Source of the DNA: Phenylobacterium sp.
Lineage (GTDB): Bacteria > Pseudomonadota > Alphaproteobacteria > Caulobacterales > Caulobacteraceae
Assembly: GCF_030680185.1 (NCBI RefSeq)
Contig: NZ_JAUXVZ010000039.1
Span: forward strand, 3,466 to 67,465
DNA length: 64,000 nucleotides
Direction: 5' to 3'
A program made the translations under genes and the position numbers. The notes under the pieces are model-generated. The model saw nothing but the letters and a program-made list of their open reading frames with translations, was not told the DNA's origin and did not search any database. Of this stretch, positions 6,550 to 13,943 are shown piece by piece; the stretch's first letter is position 1; every line of letters starts with the position of its first letter.

Positions 6550-6580
6550 GCCCTAAAGGGTCGATCAGACCGCAACGACG

Positions 6581-6612
6581 AGGCCCCGGCTCACGATGAG
6601 CCGGGGCCTTTT
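6581..6612 (+). terminator. Rho-independent terminator
   Basis: AGGCCCCGGCTCA-CGA-TGAGCCGGGGCCT stem followed by TTTT. Confidence 0.85.
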
Positions 6613-6693
6613 CTGTTGGGCTTCGAGGCGCCGCGCGGCGAGGTCAGGCGTGTGCTCACGCTCAACCGAACGCCAGCAGGGCGTCGCCTGCGA

Positions 6694-7482
6694 TCAGACG
6701 GTCGGGATGGTCCCACCGTCAACGACGAGCTCAGCGCCATGGATCGAGGAGGCGCGGTCCGAGGCGAGGAAGGCGATGGCTTCGGCGACTTCGAGGGGTT
6801 CGGCGCCCCGACCGATCGGAATGCCGCCGAGGCCTTTCAGGACGAGCTGACGCGCGTCCTCCAGCGTGCCGCCGTTGGCCTCCTGCAGACGCTGCAGGAA
6901 CACATCGGCCCCATCGGTCATGATCCAGCCGGGGGAGACGGAGTTGACCCGAACGCCTTTCGGACCCAGCTCCTTGGAGATCGACTTGCTGTAGGTCCGA
7001 AGCGCCGCCTTGGCGGCGGCGTAGGCCGTGGTCGCATCCGGGAGAGGCAGGACCGACTGGATGGACGTGACATGCACCACCGCGCCAGCGCCCCGCTCGA
7101 CCATCTGCGGGATCAGGAGGCGGTCAAGGCGAACCGCGGCGAGAAGGTTGAGGTTCAGCTCGGACAGCCAATAGTCGTCCGTCAGCATGCCGAAGCCGCC
7201 CCCTGGCGTCGTCGAGCCGCCGAGGACGTGAGCCAGAATATCCACGCCGCCCAGACGGTCGATCGCCGCCTTCGCCAGGGCTTGCCCGCCCTCGGCCGTC
7301 GTCAGATCGGCCTGGACGAACTCGACGCCGTCGATGGGCTCTTGGGCTGCGCGGGCGGAGGTGATCACGCGGGCGCCGCCGGCCAGGAACCGGTCGACGG
7401 TGGCGCGGCCAAGGCCTTTGGTGCCGCCGCTGACGAGCACGCGCTTGCCGGCGAACTCGGTCGGGTCAGGCTTGCGATTCAT
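6694..7482 (-). CDS. SDR family oxidoreductase
   Basis: SGGTKGLG, YAAAKAA, VRVNSVSPG, VDGG. Confidence 0.9.
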   Translation of the reverse strand: MNRKPDPTEFAGKRVLVSGGTKGLGRATVDRFLAGGARVITSARAAQEPIDGVEFVQADLTTAEGGQALAKAAIDRLGGVDILAHVLGGSTTPGGGFGMLTDDYWLSELNLNLLAAVRLDRLLIPQMVERGAGAVVHVTSIQSVLPLPDATTAYAAAKAALRTYSKSISKELGPKGVRVNSVSPGWIMTDGADVFLQRLQEANGGTLEDARQLVLKGLGGIPIGRGAEPLEVAEAIAFLASDRASSIHGAELVVDGGTIPTV

Positions 7483-7808
7483 CCCGTGACCTCCAGCGTC
7501 TTGATCGCGTCGCCTTCGAGGGTGAAGCGATAGATGAAACGGATCGGGCTGCCCGGAAAGTCGCCGTGGGCGGGGCCTTCGACGATCACCTCAGCGCCCT
7601 CGCGCCGGAGGGAGTCGGGCGTGAAGATCGCCTTCACGGGAACCACTTCCTTCTCCAGCAGCCCTCGGATTTCCGAGCGCCCCTGAAAGACGGCGCCGTT
7701 GTCACGAAAGACGGCGTCCGGCGCGAAGGTCTGAAGCATGGCCTCGATGTCGAGGCGGGCGTTGGCGGCCACATAGGCGGCGATGGAGGGGGGAAGGTCT
7801 AGCGACAT
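7479..7808 (-). CDS. SnoaL-like / NTF2-family protein
   Basis: FAPDAVFRD...GRSEI, GDFPGSPIRFIYRFTL; 4-nt overlap with the SDR gene. Confidence 0.82.
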   Translation of the reverse strand: MSLDLPPSIAAYVAANARLDIEAMLQTFAPDAVFRDNGAVFQGRSEIRGLLEKEVVPVKAIFTPDSLRREGAEVIVEGPAHGDFPGSPIRFIYRFTLEGDAIKTLEVTG

Positions 7809-7923
7809 GGACTTGTCCTGCTTGCTGCGCAGCCGTCAGCTACGGTCACCAATGAAGGTAGCGATAGACAGACCACGCGATAATCGGGACATTTGAGGAC
7901 GCTCCATCACGAGATTCGGGACA

Positions 7924-8826
7924 ATGTTCACTGGACTGACTGAGCTGGACGCCGTCCTGATGGTCGCCCGGCGGGGCAAGTTTCGCGCGGCGGCGCTTGA
8001 ACTGGGCATGTCGACCACGGCGCTCAGCAACGCAGTGGGAAAGCTGGAGCGCCAGCTTGGCGTACGGCTCTTCAATCGAACGACGCGCAGCGTTTCGCTG
8101 ACAGAGGCGGGCGAGCGGTTCATCGCGAAGGTGGCGCCGGCCATCGGCGAAATTCATGAGGCGATGAGCATCGCCCGCTCCCAGCAGGCCACGCCTGCGG
8201 GCGTTTTGCGGATCAACGCCTTTCCAACGGCGGCGCGCGAGATCTTCCCGTGGCTCGTCCTGCCGTTCTTGCGCGCCTATCCCCAGGTTCAGATCGACAT
8301 CGTCACAGAGAGTCGACTGGTCGACATCGTCGCAGGCGGGTTCGACTTCGGCGTCCGCAGCGCCGACCTCGTGCCGATCGACATGATCGCCCTGCCTCTG
8401 GGCGTGGCGCGACGCAACGTCGTGGTTGGCGCGCCGGAATATCTGAAGGCGCATGGGACGCCCGTGACGCCCGAGGACCTCGCACACCATGTGTGTTTCC
8501 GCGTTCGCCTTCCCAATGGCGCGATCTATCGCTGGCCCTTCGAGAAGGCGGGGCGTTCGGCGCACATCGACGTCGAAGGCGTGCTGACGCTCGACGAGGC
8601 AAGCCTTGCACGGGCCGCCGCGCTCGCGTCGGTCGGTCTCACCCTGGCGATGGAGTCCGATGTGCGTGACGACATCGAAGCAGGTCGGCTTGTGTGCGTG
8701 CTTGAGGACTGGACCCCCAAACTCGCGCCTCTCAGTCTTTACTACCCCAACCGGCGCAACCCCAGCGCCGCATTCAAGGCGTTCATCGACTTCGCGCGTC
8801 AGCATTATGAAACCGCCAGCGCCTGA
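7924..8826 (+). CDS. LysR family transcriptional regulator
   Basis: [34 protein letters not shown]; divergent from SnoaL-SDR. Confidence 0.93.
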
Positions 8827-8849
8827 GGGCGTCGGCGGGTCGGCCGACC

Positions 8850-9710
8850 TCAATAGAGGGGCTCAGTCTCCCATCCGGTGAAGCTCAGCATGACCAGGCC
8901 CAAGGCGCGCACGCTTCCCTGGTCCGGCGTCCAGCGCTCGACATAGCGATAGCGTCCTCGGTCCACGCCCTCGAAAATCCACTGCGCCCCGTCGTACCCC
9001 CACCGGCAGGACACCGCCTTGAGCCGCAGGCCGTTCGCAGCCGACAGGGCTCTGCGGAACTGGTGCGCCTCGTCCTGACTCAAGTCCTTGCTGATCCGCG
9101 CCTCAATCGAGCCCGGTACGTAGCCTCCCATGCCCGAAAGACGAGAAGCCGTCATGAGCAAGGCGCCGCTCTTAGCCCGCTCGATGCGTATTATGATGGG
9201 CTTTTCGAATGATCTGAGCCAGGTGAACCGATAAACGTCCCGCCTGGGCGTCCCTTGTTTCACCGCCTCCAGCAACGACGGCTCACCGGCCGCCGCCAGA
9301 TGGCGAGAATACCAGGCCACTTCCCAGTCATCCAAGACAGGCGCATTCCCGTTCTCTCTACAGGTATAGGTCGTTCGCATGAGCGAAGCGGGAAAGTAGC
9401 CTAGGGCCGCGTTTGCCCGTTCAGGGACCTTCGTCTTCGATGGCTCGGCATAGCCTGCGGCCGGTGGGCCAGGGATGTGCTGCAGGGGGAAGGCATGTTT
9501 CCCCGCCACGGCGGACGCCCCGACCCCGAAGGCGACAGAAAGCAAAAACACCGCCAGGAGGACCACGTAGCTGACCGGCCGCGTCGCCCGGCTCACCCCG
9601 ATGAGCGGGCCGATCAGGGCGAAGCGGCCTGTGACCAGGGCGTAGATCCACGCGGCGGCTAGGGCTGCCGTGAGGCCGACGACCGAGAGGAACATCACAA
9701 GCTGAGCCAT
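8850..9710 (-). CDS. Hypothetical membrane-anchored protein
   Basis: Two N-terminal TM segments and a soluble domain (YRFTWLRSF, DGAQWIFEG, RYVERWTP); atypical codon usage. Confidence 0.65.
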   Translation of the reverse strand: MAQLVMFLSVVGLTAALAAAWIYALVTGRFALIGPLIGVSRATRPVSYVVLLAVFLLSVAFGVGASAVAGKHAFPLQHIPGPPAAGYAEPSKTKVPERANAALGYFPASLMRTTYTCRENGNAPVLDDWEVAWYSRHLAAAGEPSLLEAVKQGTPRRDVYRFTWLRSFEKPIIIRIERAKSGALLMTASRLSGMGGYVPGSIEARISKDLSQDEAHQFRRALSAANGLRLKAVSCRWGYDGAQWIFEGVDRGRYRYVERWTPDQGSVRALGLVMLSFTGWETEPLY

Positions 9711-9785
9711 TGGGCTCAACTTACTGGACCCGCGAGCTCCTGCAACGCGGTGTGTGGAGTTCGCGCCCTTAGCCAGGCCGCTGGC

Positions 9786-10208
9786 TCAGGCCTTGTTGAT
9801 CTGGTCGCGGAGGGCCTGGATCTGCTTGTTCAGCGCCTCCAGATCCTGCCCGGACATCCTGGACCGCTCGATCAGACTGTCGCCGAGGCAGTCGGACCTT
9901 TCGAGGAGCGCCTGGCCCTCGGGAGTCAAGTTCACCTCCACCCGTCGTTCGTCATCGAGACTGCGCGTCCGGGTCACCAGGCCCGCCGCTTCGAGGCGCT
10001 TCACCAGGGGCGTCACCGTGCTGGATTCCAGATCCAGGCGCGCGGCCACGCCGCCAATGGTCAGGCCGCCCGCCTCCCCCAGCACGCTCAGCACGAGGTA
10101 CTGCGGGTAGGTCAGCCCCAACTCGTCGAGCAGGGGCTTGTAGGCCCGGGTGACCGCCATGCTGGTGGCGTACAATGTGAAGCAAATCTGTTGGTCCAAT
10201 GGGCGCAC
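9786..10208 (-). CDS. MarR family regulator (OhrR-like)
   Basis: GTG start at 10208 after GAGGAG; LDQQICFTLY, LTYPQYLVLSVL, DERRVEV. Confidence 0.9.
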   Translation of the reverse strand: MRPLDQQICFTLYATSMAVTRAYKPLLDELGLTYPQYLVLSVLGEAGGLTIGGVAARLDLESSTVTPLVKRLEAAGLVTRTRSLDDERRVEVNLTPEGQALLERSDCLGDSLIERSRMSGQDLEALNKQIQALRDQINKA

Positions 10209-10252
10209 GCCGCCTCTCCTCTGTCGCAAAACCTTCTTATCACAAAAATAGA

Positions 10253-10317
10253 TATCGCGATAAGAAATATCTGGACATCGCGAAATGGCGCAGCCAGAGG
10301 TTTTGTTATCGCGATAA
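10253..10317. promoter_or_regulatory. Repeated palindromic operator (TATCGCGATA) between MarR and hydrolase genes
   Basis: TATCGCGATA at 10253-10262, TTATCGCGATAA at 10306-10317, degenerate CATCGCGAAA between them. Confidence 0.7.
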
Positions 10318-10347
10318 ACGTTGTCGCAAACACCAATGGAGATGACC

Positions 10348-11316
10348 ATGACTGTGTCCCATCAGGCTTCCCGCCGCGGCGTCATGACCGCCGGCCTCGG
10401 CATCGCCGCGCTCTCGGCCGCTACGGTCGCTCAAGGCGCCGAGCCCAAGACCGCCCAGACGCCCCGTGGCGCCGACCGCGCCGAAAGCGGCTATGTCACC
10501 ACCCAGCACGGCGTGCAGATCTTCTACAAGGACTGGGGTCCGAAGGACGCGCAACCGGTCGTCTTCCATCACGGCTGGCCCCTGTCCTCCGACGACTGGG
10601 ACGCCCAGATGATGTTCTTCCGGCTGCAGGGCTATCGGGTGATCGCCCACGACCGACGCGGCCATGGGCGCTCGACCCAGACCGACAGCGGCAACGAGAT
10701 GGACACCTACGCCGCCGACGTGATCGCCCTGGCCGACGCCCTGGACCTGAAGAACGCCATCCATGTCGGCCATTCCACCGGCGGCGGCGAGGTCGCCCGC
10801 TATGTGGCGCGCGCCAAGCCCGGCCGGGTCTCGAAGGCCGTGCTGATCGGCGCGGTGCCGCCGATCATGCTGAAGACGCCGGCCAATCCGGACGGCCTGC
10901 CTATGGAGCTGTTCGACGGCTTCCGCACGTCCCTGGCCGCCAACCGCGCCCAGTTCTTCCGCGACATCCCCGAGGGGCCGTTCTTCGGCTTCAATCGCCC
11001 CGGCGCCAAGGTCAGCCAGGGTCTGATCGACAACTGGTGGCGGCAGGGCATGGCCGGCGGCGCCAAGGCCCACTACGACTGCATCAAGGCCTTCTCGGAG
11101 ACCGACTTCACCGAGGACCTGAGGCAGATCGACGTCCCTGTGCTGATCCTGCACGGGGAAGACGACCAGCTCGTCCCCATCGCCAACAGCGCGCATCTGG
11201 CCATCAAGCTGGTGCGGCAGGGGACGCTGAAGACCTATCCCGGCCTGCCGCACGGGATGGCGTCGACCCACCCGGACCTGATCAACGCCGACCTGCTGGC
11301 CTTCTTCAAGTCCTAG
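10348..11316 (+). CDS. Non-heme chloroperoxidase-like alpha/beta hydrolase with Tat signal
   Basis: SRRGVM Tat motif; [20 protein letters not shown] (Ser), HGEDDQLVP (Asp), PHG (His). Confidence 0.9.
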
Positions 11317-11341
11317 GCTGGTCGATCAGAGCACGCGAGAG

Positions 11342-11370
11342 GCCCCGGTTCGCGTGAGCCGGGGCTTTTT
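11342..11370 (+). terminator. Rho-independent terminator (second copy of the 6581 repeat)
   Basis: GCCCCGGTTC-GCGT-GAGCCGGGGC stem followed by TTTTT. Confidence 0.82.
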
Positions 11371-11422
11371 CGGCGTTAGGGGGCGTCCTCGGGCGCGGCG
11401 CCTTGGCCGCGATCACCGAAGC

Positions 11423-12007
11423 TTAGCGAATTGCCGCGCCTCCCCTTCGCGACCGCCACGCCTCCTGATTGAGCCGCCAGAACGCTGTCTCTTTGACGCC
11501 CTCGACATACTCGCCGACGCCCATGTGCCGGAGGGTGAAGCCTTGCTTCTCCTTGATGCGCTGCGAGGCGCGGTTGGCGCTGTTCGTGCTCACCTCGATA
11601 AAGGGCCAGTCCAGCACCTCGAAGGCATACGCGTTCACCGCGTCGGCGGCTTCCGTCATCAGGCCGCGGCCCCAGTAGTCCTGGGCCAACCAGAAGCCGC
11701 GCATGGAGCCGACGCCGGCGTCCGGCCGCAGGTCGATGCGGCCTATCAGTTCGTCGTCTCCGCCCTTGAGCGTGATCGCCCAGTAGAACTGTTCGCCGCG
11801 GGCGCGTGTCTCCAGGCATGCGCGGATATGGGTTTCCGCTCCGTCGGCCGGGTAGGGCCAGGGCGTTCTCGCCATCATGTGGCGCACCATCGCCCAGTGC
11901 GGGAAATGGCGCTGAACGGCCGGACTGTCTTCGAGCCTCAAGGGGCGGAGGACCAGTCGCTCCGTCTCAAGACGCGGCGTTTCGGGAAGGGGTAAAAGGA
12001 AGGGCAT
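11423..12007 (-). CDS. GNAT N-acetyltransferase (RimJ/RimL family)
   Basis: LETERLVLRPL, GFWLAQDYWGRGLMTEA, NRASQRIKEKQGF; SD AGGAG before ATG 12007. Confidence 0.9.
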   Translation of the reverse strand: MPFLLPLPETPRLETERLVLRPLRLEDSPAVQRHFPHWAMVRHMMARTPWPYPADGAETHIRACLETRARGEQFYWAITLKGGDDELIGRIDLRPDAGVGSMRGFWLAQDYWGRGLMTEAADAVNAYAFEVLDWPFIEVSTNSANRASQRIKEKQGFTLRHMGVGEYVEGVKETAFWRLNQEAWRSRRGGAAIR

Positions 12008-12049
12008 CACAAGGGTCTCCTGAATTGGGAGGCCGGATGCATGCTTTCC

Positions 12050-12084
12050 AAGAAGAAGCCCCGGCCGTCCTCGGCGGGGCTTGG
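12050..12084 (-). terminator. Attenuator terminator in the GNAT leader
   Basis: Minus strand AAGCCCCG-CCGAGGACGGC-CGGGGCTT-CTTCTT; located 10 nt after the leader ORF stop. Confidence 0.7.
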
Positions 12085-12092
12085 GTCGACGG

Positions 12093-12176
12093 CTAGGTGT
12101 CGCGCACGCAGCCGGCTCCACGCCCCGCAAGGGTGACGCAATTGGTGCTGGCTGACGTATTGAGAGCGCGATCCAT
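12093..12176 (-). CDS. Putative leader peptide MDRALNTSASTNCVTLAGRGAGCVRDT
   Basis: 27-codon ATG..TAG ORF whose codons 17-20 can pair with the terminator 5' arm. Confidence 0.6.
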   Translation of the reverse strand: MDRALNTSASTNCVTLAGRGAGCVRDT

Positions 12177-12263
12177 GCCGTTGCTGTTATCAAGGCCGCG
12201 CCTCAAAATCCATGGGCGTTTCCGCTGAGACCCGAGCGCCCTCGCCGCACGCCGGATCGCCCC

Positions 12264-12734
12264 ATGCCCCAGCATCTGACCGACAAGCCCATCGCCATCG
12301 CCTCCGACCATCGCGGGGTCGCCTTGAAGGCGCATCTGTCCGCGTGGCTGGTCGCCCACGGCTACGGCGTGAACGACTTCGGGGCGAACAGCGCGGCCGA
12401 GCGGGTCGATGCGATGGACTATGCGGTTCGGTTGGTCGATGAGGTCGGCGCGGGCCGGTCTGACTTCGCCATCGGCATCTGCGGCAGCGGACAGATGATG
12501 GCGATCACCGCCAACCGCTTCCCCTTCATGCGCGCGACACTGCTTCATACGGCCGCCGAGAGCGGTCCGGCGCGGGAGCATGGCGACGCCAATATGCTGG
12601 TCCTGGGCGCTGACACCGTCGATGAGGCGAGCGCCGCGCAAATCCTGAAGGTCTTCCTCAGCACCGCGCCCCTGGACGACCGCTATGCCGAGCGTCGCGC
12701 GCGATTGGCCCGGCTGGACACCTCCAGGCCCTAG
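12264..12734 (+). CDS. RpiB/LacA/LacB family sugar-phosphate isomerase
   Basis: IASDHRG, ICGSG, ANR, HGDANMLVLG. Confidence 0.85.
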   Translation: MPQHLTDKPIAIASDHRGVALKAHLSAWLVAHGYGVNDFGANSAAERVDAMDYAVRLVDEVGAGRSDFAIGICGSGQMMAITANRFPFMRATLLHTAAESGPAREHGDANMLVLGADTVDEASAAQILKVFLSTAPLDDRYAERRARLARLDTSRP

Positions 12735-13018
12735 TCGGTCTCCCGCCCGAAGGCCTTGCGCAGTTCGTCCTTGGCCGCCTCCAGGGTCTTGCGCTGCTGG
12801 GCGGGCAAATTGTCGCCAGCGCGGTTGATATAGAAGGTCAGCATGGACATGGCCGACTGGAAGGGCGTGCCCTTCCGGCGGTGGCTGCGCTCGGCCGAGC
12901 GCTTGAGCGAGGCGGCGATCTTCGCCGGATCGTCGAGGGTGAAGACGTCCTCTTCCAGATCCAGGGCGTCGCTGTGTTCGGTCACGTCCTGCGACCATTT
13001 TTCGGTTTTCTGACTCAT
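12731..13018 (-). CDS. DUF3175 family protein
   Basis: KWSQDVTEHSDALDLE, SAMSMLTFYINRAG, LEAAKDELR. Confidence 0.88.
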   Translation of the reverse strand: MSQKTEKWSQDVTEHSDALDLEEDVFTLDDPAKIAASLKRSAERSHRRKGTPFQSAMSMLTFYINRAGDNLPAQQRKTLEAAKDELRKAFGRETD

Positions 13019-13088
13019 CTGGCCTTCCTCCTCTCGGGGGAACTCGCCGTGCGGCCTGCGGTTTCGAGGGTGTCGCTTAAGCGAGCGC

Positions 13089-13137
13089 TTGACTCTCAAG
13101 ACGTGGCCGCTAAAAACTTAAGTCAATGCTACAGCAT
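13089..13137 (+). promoter_or_regulatory. Sigma70-type promoter with near-leaderless start and ArsR operator-like palindromes
   Basis: TTGACT (13089) - 16 nt - TAAAAA (13111); ATG at 13126; ACTTAAGT and ATGCT-AC-AGCAT palindromes. Confidence 0.55.
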
Positions 13138-13473
13138 CACTCCGAGCGCCTCGACATCGCCTTTCAGGCCCTGTCCGATCCGGGACGCCGCGCCATGGTC
13201 GAGCGGCTGAGCCTCGGGCCGGCCTCGGTCAGCGAACTGGCGAGGCCCCTGCCCATGACGCTTTCGGCCGTGGTCCAGCACCTCCAGGTTCTGGAAGCGG
13301 CAGGGCTGGTGAAGAGCCAGAAGGTGGGCCGCGTGCGCACCTGCAGCCTGGAGATCGGCGCCATCGCCCAGATCGAAGGCTGGATCACCGAGCGCCGGCG
13401 GTTCTGGGCGCAGCAGTATGACCAACTGGAGGCCTATCTGGCCCAGACCGCCCCGCAGGAGGGGGACAAATGA
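13126..13473 (+). CDS. ArsR/SmtB family regulator
   Basis: FQALSDPGRRAMVERL, VVQHLQVLEAAGLV, KVGRVRTC. Confidence 0.9.
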   Translation: MLQHHSERLDIAFQALSDPGRRAMVERLSLGPASVSELARPLPMTLSAVVQHLQVLEAAGLVKSQKVGRVRTCSLEIGAIAQIEGWITERRRFWAQQYDQLEAYLAQTAPQEGDK

Positions 13474-13943
13474 CGCTGATCAACGCCACCTTCACCATCG
13501 AGCGGGCGCTGGCCGCCACGCCGGCCCGGGTCTTCGCCGCCTATTCGAGCCTGGAGGCCAAGATGGCCTGGTTCAAGGCGCCGGCCGATATCGAGACCCT
13601 GAACCGCGACTTCGACTTCCGCGTCGGCGGCAAGGAGCGGTTCCACGCCCGCTGGCCGGACGGCAAGGTCACCGACTTCCAGGCCACCTACCACGACATC
13701 GTCGAGAACGAGCGGATCGTGCTGGTCTACGACATGTTCCACAACGACGAGAAGCTGTCGGTCTCCCTCCAGACCCTGGAATTCCGGGCGCAGGGCGACG
13801 GGACCCGGCTGATCCACACCGAGCAGGGCTCCTATTTCAGCGGCGGCGTCGAGGCCGTGAAGGGCCGCGAGCACGGCACCACCTGGCACGTGGACAATCT
13901 GGTGGCCTTGATGGAGGGGCGGGAAGCCCGGGCCTTCGCATGA
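13470..13943 (+). CDS. SRPBCC (AHSA1-like) domain protein
   Basis: ARVFAAYS, DFRVGGKE, YHDIVENERIV, GTRLIHTEQ. Confidence 0.88.
   Translation: MTLINATFTIERALAATPARVFAAYSSLEAKMAWFKAPADIETLNRDFDFRVGGKERFHARWPDGKVTDFQATYHDIVENERIVLVYDMFHNDEKLSVSLQTLEFRAQGDGTRLIHTEQGSYFSGGVEAVKGREHGTTWHVDNLVALMEGREARAFA

What the first reader, a model, noticed from the sequence alone, without database searches (positions are those of the whole stretch)
12007..12176. Complete ribosome-dependent attenuator in front of a GNAT acetyltransferase
Seen on the minus strand: a 27-codon ORF (12176-12093, MDRALNTSASTNCVTLAGRGAGCVRDT*). Ten nt after its stop lies a terminator AAGCCCCG/CGGGGCUU with tail CUUCUU (12082-12050), then an SD and the RimJ/RimL GNAT gene. 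Leader codons 17-20 (GCGGGGCGUGG, 12128-12118) can pair 10 of 11 nt with the terminator 5' arm (CCAAGCCCCGC, 12084-12074), giving a mutually exclusive antiterminator. Established: this is the architecture of thr/ilv/leu/trp attenuators. Unusual: the regulated gene is an acetyltransferase, and there is no run of one amino acid. The codons just before the antiterminator are T-S-A-S-T-N-C-V-T. Inference: ribosome stalling (Thr/Ser/Cys limitation, an amino-acid analogue or a translation inhibitor) induces an acetylating or detoxifying enzyme.
Basis: partly seen in the sequence, partly recalled or inferred. Interest (0 to 1): 0.82.

Follow-up and report, generated by a model that had tools for sequence, protein, structure and literature searches.

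The report
Leader-peptide attenuator controlling an acetyltransferase
A tiny upstream reading frame and competing RNA hairpins in front of an acetyltransferase gene form a ribosome-sensing switch of the type that normally controls amino-acid genes, but here it controls a modifying enzyme and carries asparagine, cysteine, serine and threonine codons instead of a run of one amino acid.

Summary

- **uORF:** The 27-codon uORF (12176-12093) is kept in 44 of 44 distinct orthologous leaders (Phenylobacterium, other Caulobacteraceae, Reyranella). It runs 24-30 codons, and all three stop codons are used.
- **Stop position:** The stop always lies 13-26 nt before an invariant CCCCGCC...GGNCGGGG hairpin.
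- **Promoter:** A -10 box sits at a fixed 7-nt gap before the AUG, so the uORF is probably leaderless.
- **Alternative pairings:** The segment after the invariant GGGGCG pairs either upstream or just after the stop, with compensatory changes in both.
- **Family:** The same RNA layout precedes asd (Thr/Ile/Lys/Met codons), hisS (His runs), thrS (eight Thr) and dapA in Alphaproteobacteria. This places the element in a real attenuator family.

New points:
- The output may be SD occlusion through a 3:4/4:5 relay as much as termination. The U-tail is weak here and absent in most orthologues.
- The sensing codons are enriched in Cys and Asn (about 8-fold) and in Ser and Thr (about 2.5-fold).
- Two further GNAT families and a methyltransferase carry similar leaders.

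The signal and the enzyme's substrate remain unknown. Verdict: a new variant of a known kind.

The parts
12184..12191 (-). -10-like promoter box GATAACAG, with a 7-nt gap to the uORF AUG. This implies a leaderless or nearly leaderless leader transcript.
   Evidence: In 43 leaders aligned without gaps on the ATG, 'G.TA' sits at -15..-12 and TTTAC near -37; the window fits the -10. The -35 is weak in the window. No sigma-70 consensus hit. No TSS data.
12093..12176 (-). Leader uORF of 27 codons plus TAG: MDRALNTSASTNCVTLAGRGAGCVRDT.
   Evidence: In 44 of 44 orthologous leaders, frame 0 is open for 24-30 codons and stops 13-26 nt before the hairpin core. Frames 1 and 2 do so in only 12 and 11 of 44. 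Stop codons are TAG 21, TGA 12, TAA 11.
12138..12164 (-). Proposed sensing window, codons 5-13 (L N T S A S T N C). These codons occupy the same positions as the His run in hisS leaders and the Thr/Ile/Lys/Met codons in asd leaders.
   Evidence: Position match with control leaders, all anchored on the Ala17 codon of 'LAG'. In a footprint-masking model, 1:2 pairing is favoured with the A site on codons 5-8 and 10-11 and is lost from codon 13 on. Clade-averaged enrichment: Cys 8.3x, Asn 7.8x, Ser 2.6x, Thr 2.4x.
12132..12154 (-). Region 0 (protector): CAGCCAGCACC...GCGTCACC. It pairs with region 1 and its 3' extension when no ribosome is present.
   Evidence: The MFE of the free leader contains this domain. 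In relatives the upstream partner covaries with region 1: CCGUCC:GGACGG and CCGGUCUC:GAGACCGG. In the window itself this pairing is imperfect, and the inner hairpin is no better than shuffles.
12110..12128 (-). Region 1 (antiterminator 5' strand): GCGGGGCGTGG plus AGCCGGCT.
   Evidence: GGGGCG is invariant and starts 44-53 nt from the ATG in all leaders, yet it falls in all three reading frames depending on clade. It is therefore conserved as RNA, not as peptide. It pairs with 12084-12074.
12056..12084 (-). Regions 2 and 3: the terminator-like hairpin CC-AAGCCCCGCCG / AGGA / CGGCCGGGGCTT. The 5' arm is shared with the antiterminator.
   Evidence: Energy -20.1 kcal/mol. On 44 leaders, 88% of cells are paired. 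There are 36 cells changed on both sides against 13.6 in shuffles (0 of 500 shuffles reach this). The outer pairs covary (AU/GC/CG/UA) and the core never varies.
12048..12055 (-). Tail CTTCTTGG: a weak U-rich tract after the hairpin.
   Evidence: It fails the terminator scan. Most orthologues (genus g33, Reyranella) have no U-tract, whereas asd and thrS leaders of other alphaproteobacterial families have UUUUU.
12028..12037 (-). Region 4: TCCGGCCTCC. Its CCGGCC can pair with the hairpin 3' arm (GGCCGG), and its CCUCC can pair with the SD.
   Evidence: With the ribosome masked on codons 5-8, the model pairs 3:4. The 3:4 duplex beats shuffles in most Phenylobacterium leaders (0-12 of 200 shuffles as good). 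In the window it is only 12 of 200 and z = -0.46.
12016..12021 (-). Shine-Dalgarno AGGAGA of the GNAT gene (region 5).
   Evidence: The anti-SD/SD hairpin is strong in Reyranella and g33 leaders (0-14 of 200 shuffles as good) but weak in the window (-7.8 kcal/mol, not better than shuffles).
11423..12007 (-). Regulated gene: a 194-aa GNAT acetyltransferase of the RimJ/RimL-type Pfam family. It is monocistronic.
   Evidence: PF13302 E = 5.7e-30. Solved structures are only distant relatives: YdaF 1nsl, Atu2435 2fsr, PA3944, SpeG, RimL 1s7k, BlmB. The substrate is unknown.

Best explanation
This is a ribosome-dependent (leader-peptide) attenuator.

**Proposed mechanism**
- Transcription starts at or next to the AUG of a 27-codon leader ORF, which is translated as the RNA emerges.
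- If the ribosome runs through to the stop, it occupies region 1 (GCGGGGCGUGG...) and then the stretch up to the foot of the hairpin. Region 2 therefore pairs with region 3 into the GC hairpin (OFF).
- In the OFF state transcription may end at the weak CUUCUU tail, and CCUCC (region 4) is free to cover the SD.
- If the ribosome lingers on codons 5-13, it covers the upstream protector (region 0) and leaves region 1 free to capture region 2 (antiterminator).
- The released 3' arm (GGCCGGGG) can then pair with CCGGCC of region 4, which exposes the SD, and the acetyltransferase is made (ON).

**Status of each step**
- Shown here by comparison: the conserved uORF, the mutually exclusive helices with compensatory changes, and kinship with His/Thr/Lys-type attenuators.
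- Inferred: the leaderless start, the order of events, and whether the output is termination or SD occlusion.
- Least certain: the signal. My preferred reading is slow decoding of Asn and Cys codons, with Ser and Thr, meaning a shortage of those charged tRNAs. The genome lacks AsnRS, so Asn-tRNA depends on the GatCAB route. This would switch on an enzyme that acetylates, and probably detoxifies or diverts, a small molecule.
For: - **uORF:** conserved in 44 of 44 leaders in frame 0, against 12 and 11 of 44 in the other frames. All three stop codons are used, and the stop lies 13-26 nt before the hairpin core.
- **Promoter:** the -10 box is at a fixed distance from the ATG in 43 leaders including the window.
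- **RNA-level conservation:** region 1 GGGGCG is invariant at 44-53 nt from the ATG but sits in all three frames.
- **Hairpin covariation:** 0 of 500 shuffles reach the observed value.
- **Three-way covariation:** the segment after GGGGC pairs upstream (CCGUCC:GGACGG, CCGGUCUC:GAGACCGG) or downstream (GUCGGGA:UCCCGAC, GUCUGGA:UCCAGAC, GUGAGA:UCUCGC, GUCCG:CGGAC).
- **Folding in the window:** the antiterminator folds at -32.2 kcal/mol, z = -2.8. ON and OFF folds lie within about 5 kcal/mol of each other.
- **Family membership:** two covariance models built from these leaders find the same layout before asd, hisS, thrS and dapA with matching control codons. One such asd leader is in this very genome.
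- **Model calibration:** in those control leaders the control codons fall exactly in the positions where the footprint model allows 1:2 pairing.
- **Codon content:** Asn and Cys are about 8-fold enriched in the sensing window and almost absent (Asn 0.4%) from the rest of the peptide.
- **Asn-tRNA route:** no AsnRS scores above the family cut-off in a genome that is 98.8% complete.
- **Precedent:** Caulobacter is already known to use leader-peptide attenuation (ilvBN, and a small CDS before trpS) and many leaderless mRNAs (PMC4117421).
Against: - There are no expression data.
- There is no run of one amino acid, so the sensed residue is not evident.
- Part of the 'conserved' peptide is forced by RNA pairing. 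Examples are the Pro-Ser-Gly codons CCGUCCGG, and AAC-GCC inside region 0. This weakens the codon-enrichment argument.
- In the window itself, the 0:1, 3:4 and 4:5 helices are no better than shuffled sequence, and the whole spacer has z = -0.14.
- The U-tail is poor.
- The equilibrium footprint model ignores sterics and kinetics. It gives inconsistent free-RNA states among leaders.
- The -35 box is weak in the window.
Confidence: 0.78

Rival explanations
1. Same hardware, different signal. The leader senses drug- or antimetabolite-slowed ribosomes, either as a general elongation slowdown or as a nascent-peptide-dependent arrest. It then switches on a detoxifying acetyltransferase, as the erm, cat and cmlA leaders and the mycobacterial whiB7 uORF do.
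For: - There is no single-amino-acid run.
- The sensing strings are rich in Ala, Ser and Thr (TSASTN, MTSATK, NANA). From my own knowledge, not tested here: this is the context in which chloramphenicol-type drugs arrest ribosomes, and the cmlA leader reads MSTSKNAD.
- Similar leaders precede two further unrelated GNAT families and a SAM methyltransferase. That is what a resistance or detoxification battery would look like.
- The nearest named relatives by sequence include an antibiotic acetyltransferase (BlmB/TlmB) and PA3944.
- The whiB7 uORF answers both to alanine starvation and to antibiotics (PMC10274678, listed).
Against: - All clearly readable members of the family are amino-acid sensors.
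- The peptide differs greatly between clades (NPSGCNA, ANPQNANAR, MVSATKG), which is not expected of one specific arrest peptide.
- Asn and Cys enrichment is not explained by an Ala/Ser/Thr-context rule.
- The GNAT's substrate is unknown.
Confidence: 0.3
2. The conserved leader is a ligand- or protein-binding RNA switch (a riboswitch-like element), and the ORF is incidental.
For: - The core motifs GGGGCG and CCCCGCC...GGNCGGGG are strikingly invariant across all leaders. Such invariance could mark a binding site.
- No Rfam family matches, so it would be unclassified.
Against: - Frame, length and stop position of the ORF are kept in 44 of 44 leaders with interchangeable stop codons.
- The AUG lies at a fixed distance from the promoter.
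- The variable part is exactly the part that carries His, Thr or Lys codons in sister leaders.
- There is no conserved multi-helix aptamer core.
Confidence: 0.04
3. The small ORF encodes a functional micro-protein, for example a substrate or partner of the acetyltransferase, and is not a sensor.
For: - A short ORF is always linked to the GNAT.
- S. meliloti peTrpL shows that leader peptides can act in trans (PMC7298713, listed).
Against: - The distal half is conserved as nucleotides in three different frames.
- Peptides diverge almost completely between clades.
- The same scaffold serves asd, hisS and thrS.
Confidence: 0.04
4. Chance: an ordinary GC-rich hairpin and a spurious ORF in a divergent promoter region.
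For: In this roughly 65% GC DNA, open frames and stable folds are common. The whole spacer has z = -0.14, and there are no consensus promoter or terminator hits.
Against: - The leader scores 100-144 bits against its model upstream of orthologous GNATs in several genera, and it is also found in another order (Reyranella).
- It covaries.
- The frame test passes.
Confidence: 0.01

Closest known systems
Classical leader-peptide transcription attenuators (E. coli/Salmonella trp, his, thr, leu, ilv, pheA; Caulobacter crescentus ilvBN leader)
   Same: A short translated leader ORF; protector, antiterminator and terminator helices that exclude each other; ribosome position decides the fold; the stop codon is placed just before the terminator arm. 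Sister leaders with His or Thr runs share the same RNA scaffold. The Caulobacter ilvBN and trpS leaders are mentioned in PMC4117421.
   Different: The regulated gene is an acetyltransferase, not a biosynthetic or aaRS gene. There is no run of one residue. The uORF is probably leaderless. The U-tract is weak or absent, and an extra anti-SD relay is present. No match to Rfam leader families.
Alphaproteobacterial hisS/asd/thrS/dapA leaders of the same scaffold
   Same: Same promoter-to-AUG spacing, the same invariant GGGGCG and CCCCGCC...GGNCGGGG, the same uORF length, and the same anti-SD segment. They are detected by models built from the GNAT leaders.
   Different: Their control codons match the product of the regulated gene. 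The GNAT leader's codons (Asn, Cys, Ser, Thr, Ala) point to no obvious pathway.
Mycobacterial leaderless polycysteine uORF attenuators (bioRxiv 10.1101/834739)
   Same: A leaderless short ORF as the first cistron, Cys codons as sensors, and control of downstream genes by ribosome stalling (abstract seen).
   Different: Different phylum and no sequence relation. Those leaders have Cys runs and control Cys-related operons. Here single Cys codons are mixed with Asn, Ser and Thr, and a defined terminator/antiterminator scaffold is present.
whiB7 uORF attenuator of mycobacteria, and drug-inducible leaders (ermC, cat, cmlA)
   Same: A uORF that reports translation stress and turns on resistance or modifying functions, including GNAT enzymes in the WhiB7 regulon. 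It has dual sensitivity to amino-acid shortage and antibiotics (PMC10274678).
   Different: whiB7 acts through a transcription factor, whereas here each enzyme gene carries its own cis leader. No evidence yet that drugs induce this element.

Membership tests
Ribosome-dependent leader-peptide attenuator | A short ORF in the 5' leader that is translated | tested here: inconclusive
   Conservation of frame, length and stop in 44 of 44 leaders against 12 and 11 of 44 in the other frames, and a fixed promoter-AUG spacing, argue strongly for translation. No Ribo-seq or RNA-seq could be consulted.
Ribosome-dependent leader-peptide attenuator | Mutually exclusive antiterminator and terminator helices sharing one strand | tested here: met
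   Pairing 1:2 (12128-12118 with 12084-12074) excludes hairpin 2:3. Both are supported by compensatory changes.
Ribosome-dependent leader-peptide attenuator | Control codons for the regulating amino acid, placed so that a stalled ribosome frees the antiterminator strand | tested here: inconclusive
   The position is right: codons 5-13 coincide with the His and Thr/Ile/Lys runs of sister leaders. There is no run. Only an enrichment is seen: Cys 8.3x, Asn 7.8x, Ser 2.6x, Thr 2.4x, and this is partly confounded by RNA pairing.
Ribosome-dependent leader-peptide attenuator | An intrinsic terminator (GC hairpin plus U-tract) as the output | tested here: inconclusive
   The hairpin is present at -20.1 kcal/mol. 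The tail CUUCUUGG fails the scan. Most GNAT-leader orthologues lack a U-tract, while asd and thrS leaders of other families have UUUUU. An anti-SD relay offers an alternative output.
Ribosome-dependent leader-peptide attenuator | Regulated gene belongs to the pathway of the sensed amino acid | tested here: not met
   The gene is a GNAT of unknown substrate. This is where it departs from the classical family.
Riboswitch / known Rfam cis-regulatory RNA | Match to a curated covariance model | tested here: not met
   No Rfam 15 match up to E = 10 in 11000-13500.
RimJ/RimL-type GNAT (Pfam Acetyltransf_3) | Domain match above the gathering score | tested here: met
   PF13302 scores 105 bits against a cut-off of 25.4. 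Specific function (ribosomal-protein, antibiotic or metabolite acetylation) was not tested.

The most novel reading that the evidence does not exclude
Alphaproteobacteria such as Phenylobacterium and Reyranella have re-used their amino-acid attenuator scaffold as a cis-acting translation-stress sensor. Its sensing window of Asn, Cys, Ser and Thr codons has no single-residue run. The sensor individually switches on a set of unrelated small-molecule-modifying enzymes: at least three GNAT families and a SAM methyltransferase. This would be an inducible detoxification or intrinsic-resistance battery comparable in logic to the WhiB7 regulon, but without a transcription factor.
Probability: 0.3. Interest if true: 0.8.

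Novelty: new variant of a known kind. Interest (0 to 1): 0.64.

Why it matters
Leader-peptide attenuation is textbook for amino-acid operons, where the control codons name the signal.

Here the same scaffold, clearly related to His, Thr and Lys leaders, drives acetyltransferases and a methyltransferase of unknown function. Its codon set (Asn, Cys, Ser, Thr) names no pathway.

If confirmed, two things follow:
- It gives a direct experimental handle on what these orphan GNATs are for, because whatever stalls ribosomes on the leader is the condition the enzyme answers.
- It shows how a modular attenuator can be moved to new genes by changing only about 10 codons.

It also adds a probably leaderless, SD-occluding version of attenuation in high-GC Alphaproteobacteria.

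Tried and rejected
- **Rfam scan:** nothing found even at E = 10.
- **Consensus promoter/terminator scan:** nothing.
- **Whole-spacer fold:** not better than shuffles, so single-sequence thermodynamics cannot carry the claim.
- **RNAalifold on 15 leaders:** recovered only the hairpin and a 3-bp stem. Alternative helices had to be examined with per-sequence duplex searches.
- **Duplex-versus-shuffle tests:** individually weak in GC-rich RNA.
- **Pairing of 5' CGCGC with the conserved GCGCG box:** only marginal, 33 of 44 better than the shuffle mean. Left unexplained.
- **Footprint-masking model:** qualitatively right for control leaders but inconsistent for genus g33 and for ribosomes at the stop, because it ignores sterics.
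- **Function of the GNAT:** PDB and NCBIfam give only remote relatives. No structure prediction was run, because a GNAT fold would not give the substrate.
- **Distant GNAT homologues** in Bradyrhizobium, Pseudomonas and Azospirillum have no such leader. The leader is therefore not an ancestral trait of the enzyme family.
- **First search of 400 genomes** failed on the server and was repeated with 200.
- **Literature searches** found no description of a GNAT under leader-peptide control in Alphaproteobacteria. The library lacks most subscription journals.
Full report
**1. What is in the window**

The stretch 12263-12008 is a divergent spacer. On one side is an rpiB/lacAB-type isomerase gene (+, 12264-12734, PF02502). 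On the other is a 194-aa GNAT acetyltransferase (-, 12007-11423, PF13302, E = 6e-30).

- The 27-codon uORF is at 12176-12093.
- Ten nucleotides separate its stop from the hairpin.
- The hairpin is AAGCCCCGCCG / AGGA / CGGCCGGGGCTT (12082-12056).
- The tail is CTTCTTGG.
- Pairing of 12128-12118 with 12084-12074 holds at 10 of 11 positions.
- An SD (AGGAGA, 12021-16) precedes the start.

Folding results:
- The hairpin alone folds at -20.1 kcal/mol.
- The region 1 to region 2 segment folds into the antiterminator at -32.2 kcal/mol, z = -2.8.

Single-sequence statistics are otherwise unimpressive in this GC-rich DNA:
- The whole spacer has z = -0.14.
- There are no consensus promoter or terminator hits.
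- There is no Rfam match up to E = 10.

**2. Conservation of the leader with the gene**

- The GNAT is patchy. It occurs in 14 of 151 genomes of the family.
- Wherever a close orthologue occurs, the same leader lies upstream.
- A covariance model of 15 leaders (R1) scores 100-144 bits upstream of the orthologues in four genera of the family.
- Record titles identify the window's genus as Phenylobacterium.
- The leader-GNAT pair also occurs in Reyranella, in one Bradyrhizobium and in another alphaproteobacterial family.
- More distant GNAT homologues (Bradyrhizobium after mutM, Pseudomonas, Azospirillum) have no leader.

**3. The ORF is real**

- In 44 distinct leaders, the frame starting at the ATG is open for 24-30 codons. 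Its first stop falls 13-26 nt before the hairpin core in 44 of 44 cases.
- The other two frames do so in only 12 and 11 of 44.
- The stop codons are TAG 21, TGA 12 and TAA 11.
- Upstream, 'G.TA' sits at -15..-12 and TTTAC near -37 relative to the ATG in 43 leaders. The window has GATAACAG at 12191-12184 with a 7-nt gap.
- This places the transcription start at or next to the AUG, giving a leaderless uORF. Leaderless mRNAs are common in Caulobacter (PMC4117421). This is an inference; no 5'-end data were available.

**4. The distal half is RNA, not peptide**

The invariant GGGGCG starts 44-53 nt from the ATG in every leader. It lies in frame 2 in Phenylobacterium, frame 1 in genus g33 and frame 0 in Reyranella.

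**5. Helices**

- *Hairpin 2:3.* 88% of cells are paired. There are 36 double-change cells against 13.6 in shuffles (0 of 500 shuffles reach this). The outer pairs switch among AU, GC, CG and UA, and the core CCCCGCC/GGNCGGGG never varies.
- *The segment 3' of GGGGC has two alternative partners, and both covary.*
  - Upstream (protector 0:1): CCGUCC:GGACGG and CCGGUCUC:GAGACCGG.
  - Downstream, just after the stop (extension of antiterminator 1:2): GUCGGGA:UCCCGAC, GUCUGGA:UCCAGAC, GUGAGA:UCUCGC and GUCCG:CGGAC.
  - The 3:4 duplex beats shuffles in most Phenylobacterium leaders.
  - The 4:5 hairpin beats shuffles in Reyranella and g33.
  - In the window itself both are weak.
- *U-tract.* It is weak here and absent in most GNAT leaders. 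The output may therefore be SD occlusion, termination or both.

**6. Kinship with bona fide attenuators**

The weaker hits of R1, and the hits of a second model of the scaffold (R2), are leaders with the same promoter spacing, the same invariant motifs and the same uORF length. They stand in front of:

| Gene | Leader peptide (example) |
|---|---|
| asd | MRRSTIKSAIKTTMPAG...; in this very genome MRHLATMTMIIKTTALAG |
| hisS | MTRIAHHHGHHHHPTLAG |
| thrS | MSQVRATTTTTTTTRLGG |
| dapA-type genes | ...AKK... |

- In other alphaproteobacterial families these leaders end in GC hairpins followed by UUUUU.
- The His, Thr, Ile and Lys codons occupy codons about 6-14, exactly the positions of N-T-S-A-S-T-N-C-V in the window's leader. 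All are anchored on the same Ala17 codon of 'LAG'.
- In a footprint-masking model these are the positions that allow 1:2 pairing.
My hisS hits agree with it.

**7. What differs**

- The GNAT leaders have no single-residue run.
- Averaged over nine clades, codons 4-15 are enriched in Cys (8.3x), Asn (7.8x), Ser (2.6x) and Thr (2.4x) relative to the genome's long ORFs. They are depleted in Asp, Glu, His, Trp, Leu, Ile and Val.
- Asn makes up 13.6% of the sensing window against 0.4% in the rest of the peptide.
- Caveat: some of these codons are held by RNA pairing. Examples are CCG-UCC-GG (Pro-Ser-Gly) and the AAC-GCC in region 0.
- The genome has no AsnRS above the family cut-off. Asn-tRNA is therefore presumably made by the AspRS/GatCAB route. 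This is an inference from established knowledge of that pathway.
- Leaders of the same scaffold with similar strings precede other enzymes:
  - A second Acetyltransf_3 GNAT: own genome contig C6:6742, MFALAALACNSYGPIRG; also MHRACALSNSNGPFG.
  - A third small GNAT: ...NLTSCTASGG and ...VTLCTAQAG.
  - A class I SAM methyltransferase...IMTSTIAPSRG and ...QMTSSTAAAPWG.

**8. Mechanism proposed**

See the best explanation. A ribosome that reaches the distal uORF and its stop prevents 1:2, so 2:3 forms (OFF). A ribosome held on codons 5-13 masks the protector and lets 1:2 form, which releases the 3' arm to pair with region 4 and frees the SD (ON).

The signal is open between two readings:
- Shortage of charged tRNA for Asn and Cys, with Ser and Thr.
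- Drug- or analogue-slowed ribosomes.

The GNAT's substrate is unknown. Only remote relatives have solved structures: YdaF, Atu2435, PA3944, SpeG, RimL and BlmB.

**9. Novelty**

Leader-peptide attenuation is known, including in Caulobacter (ilvBN, and a small CDS before trpS). I found no description of such a leader controlling GNATs or a methyltransferase, nor of an Asn/Cys-rich leader. The searchable library is incomplete. I rate this a new variant of a known kind.

**10. Limits**

- No transcript or ribosome data were available.
- Equilibrium folding ignores kinetics and ribosome sterics.
- E-values of the home-built models are rough.
- Genomes are anonymised, so some clade names are unknown.

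Noticed in passing
own genome, contig C6:6742-6903 (+), outside the window: A second leader of the same scaffold (uORF MFALAALACNSYGPIRGRGMARA, hairpin GACCCCGCCGCCTGGCCGGGGTC, anti-SD/SD) in front of a different Acetyltransf_3 GNAT (188 aa).
   Followed up: partly
own genome, contig C54:24072-24177 (+), outside the window: An asd (aspartate-semialdehyde dehydrogenase) leader of the same scaffold, with uORF MRHLATMTMIIKTTALAGAGVWSWLDAAD rich in Thr, Met, Ile and Lys.
   Followed up: partly
L146, L176 (Phenylobacterium genomes G015, G240): The same scaffold with uORFs MLRCAAQIMTSTIAPSRGVGGRARD and MFERRQMTSSTAAAPWGGGRRARV before a class I SAM-dependent methyltransferase (PF13649).
   Followed up: partly
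all leaders; window 12125-12120 and 12079-12058: GGGGCG and CCCCGCC...GGNCGGGG are invariant across leaders of quite different genes and across alphaproteobacterial families. This is more than base pairing alone would require. A conserved GCGCG box (window 12105-12100) has no convincing partner; pairing with the 5' CGCGC is only marginal.
   Followed up: partly
L018/L024, L020/L025, L037 (genus g33): Downstream of the leader there are two tandem GNAT copies in one long open frame (about 400 aa). This is either a duplication or a fusion.
   Followed up: no
L017-L022 (genus g33), between uORF end and hairpin: An extra hairpin holds the uORF stop codon in its loop (for example CUGUCG-UAAG-CGACAG). 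The window lacks it.
   Followed up: no
window 11330-11375 (-): A GC hairpin with an A/U-rich flank (aaaaagccccggctcacgcgaaccggggcc) lies between the convergent GNAT and alpha/beta-hydrolase genes. Another first-reader note (e1-5271015) lists this spot as one copy of a direct repeat bracketing 6559-11370. I did not check it.
   Followed up: no
own genome (whole): No asparaginyl-tRNA synthetase scores above the NCBIfam cut-off. The only hit is a 650-aa AspRS-like frame, which implies the indirect GatCAB route to Asn-tRNA.
   Followed up: partly
window 12734-13099 (-), 13126-13473 (+): Neighbouring genes are a DUF3175 protein and an ArsR/HTH_20 regulator. No link to the leader was seen.
   Followed up: no
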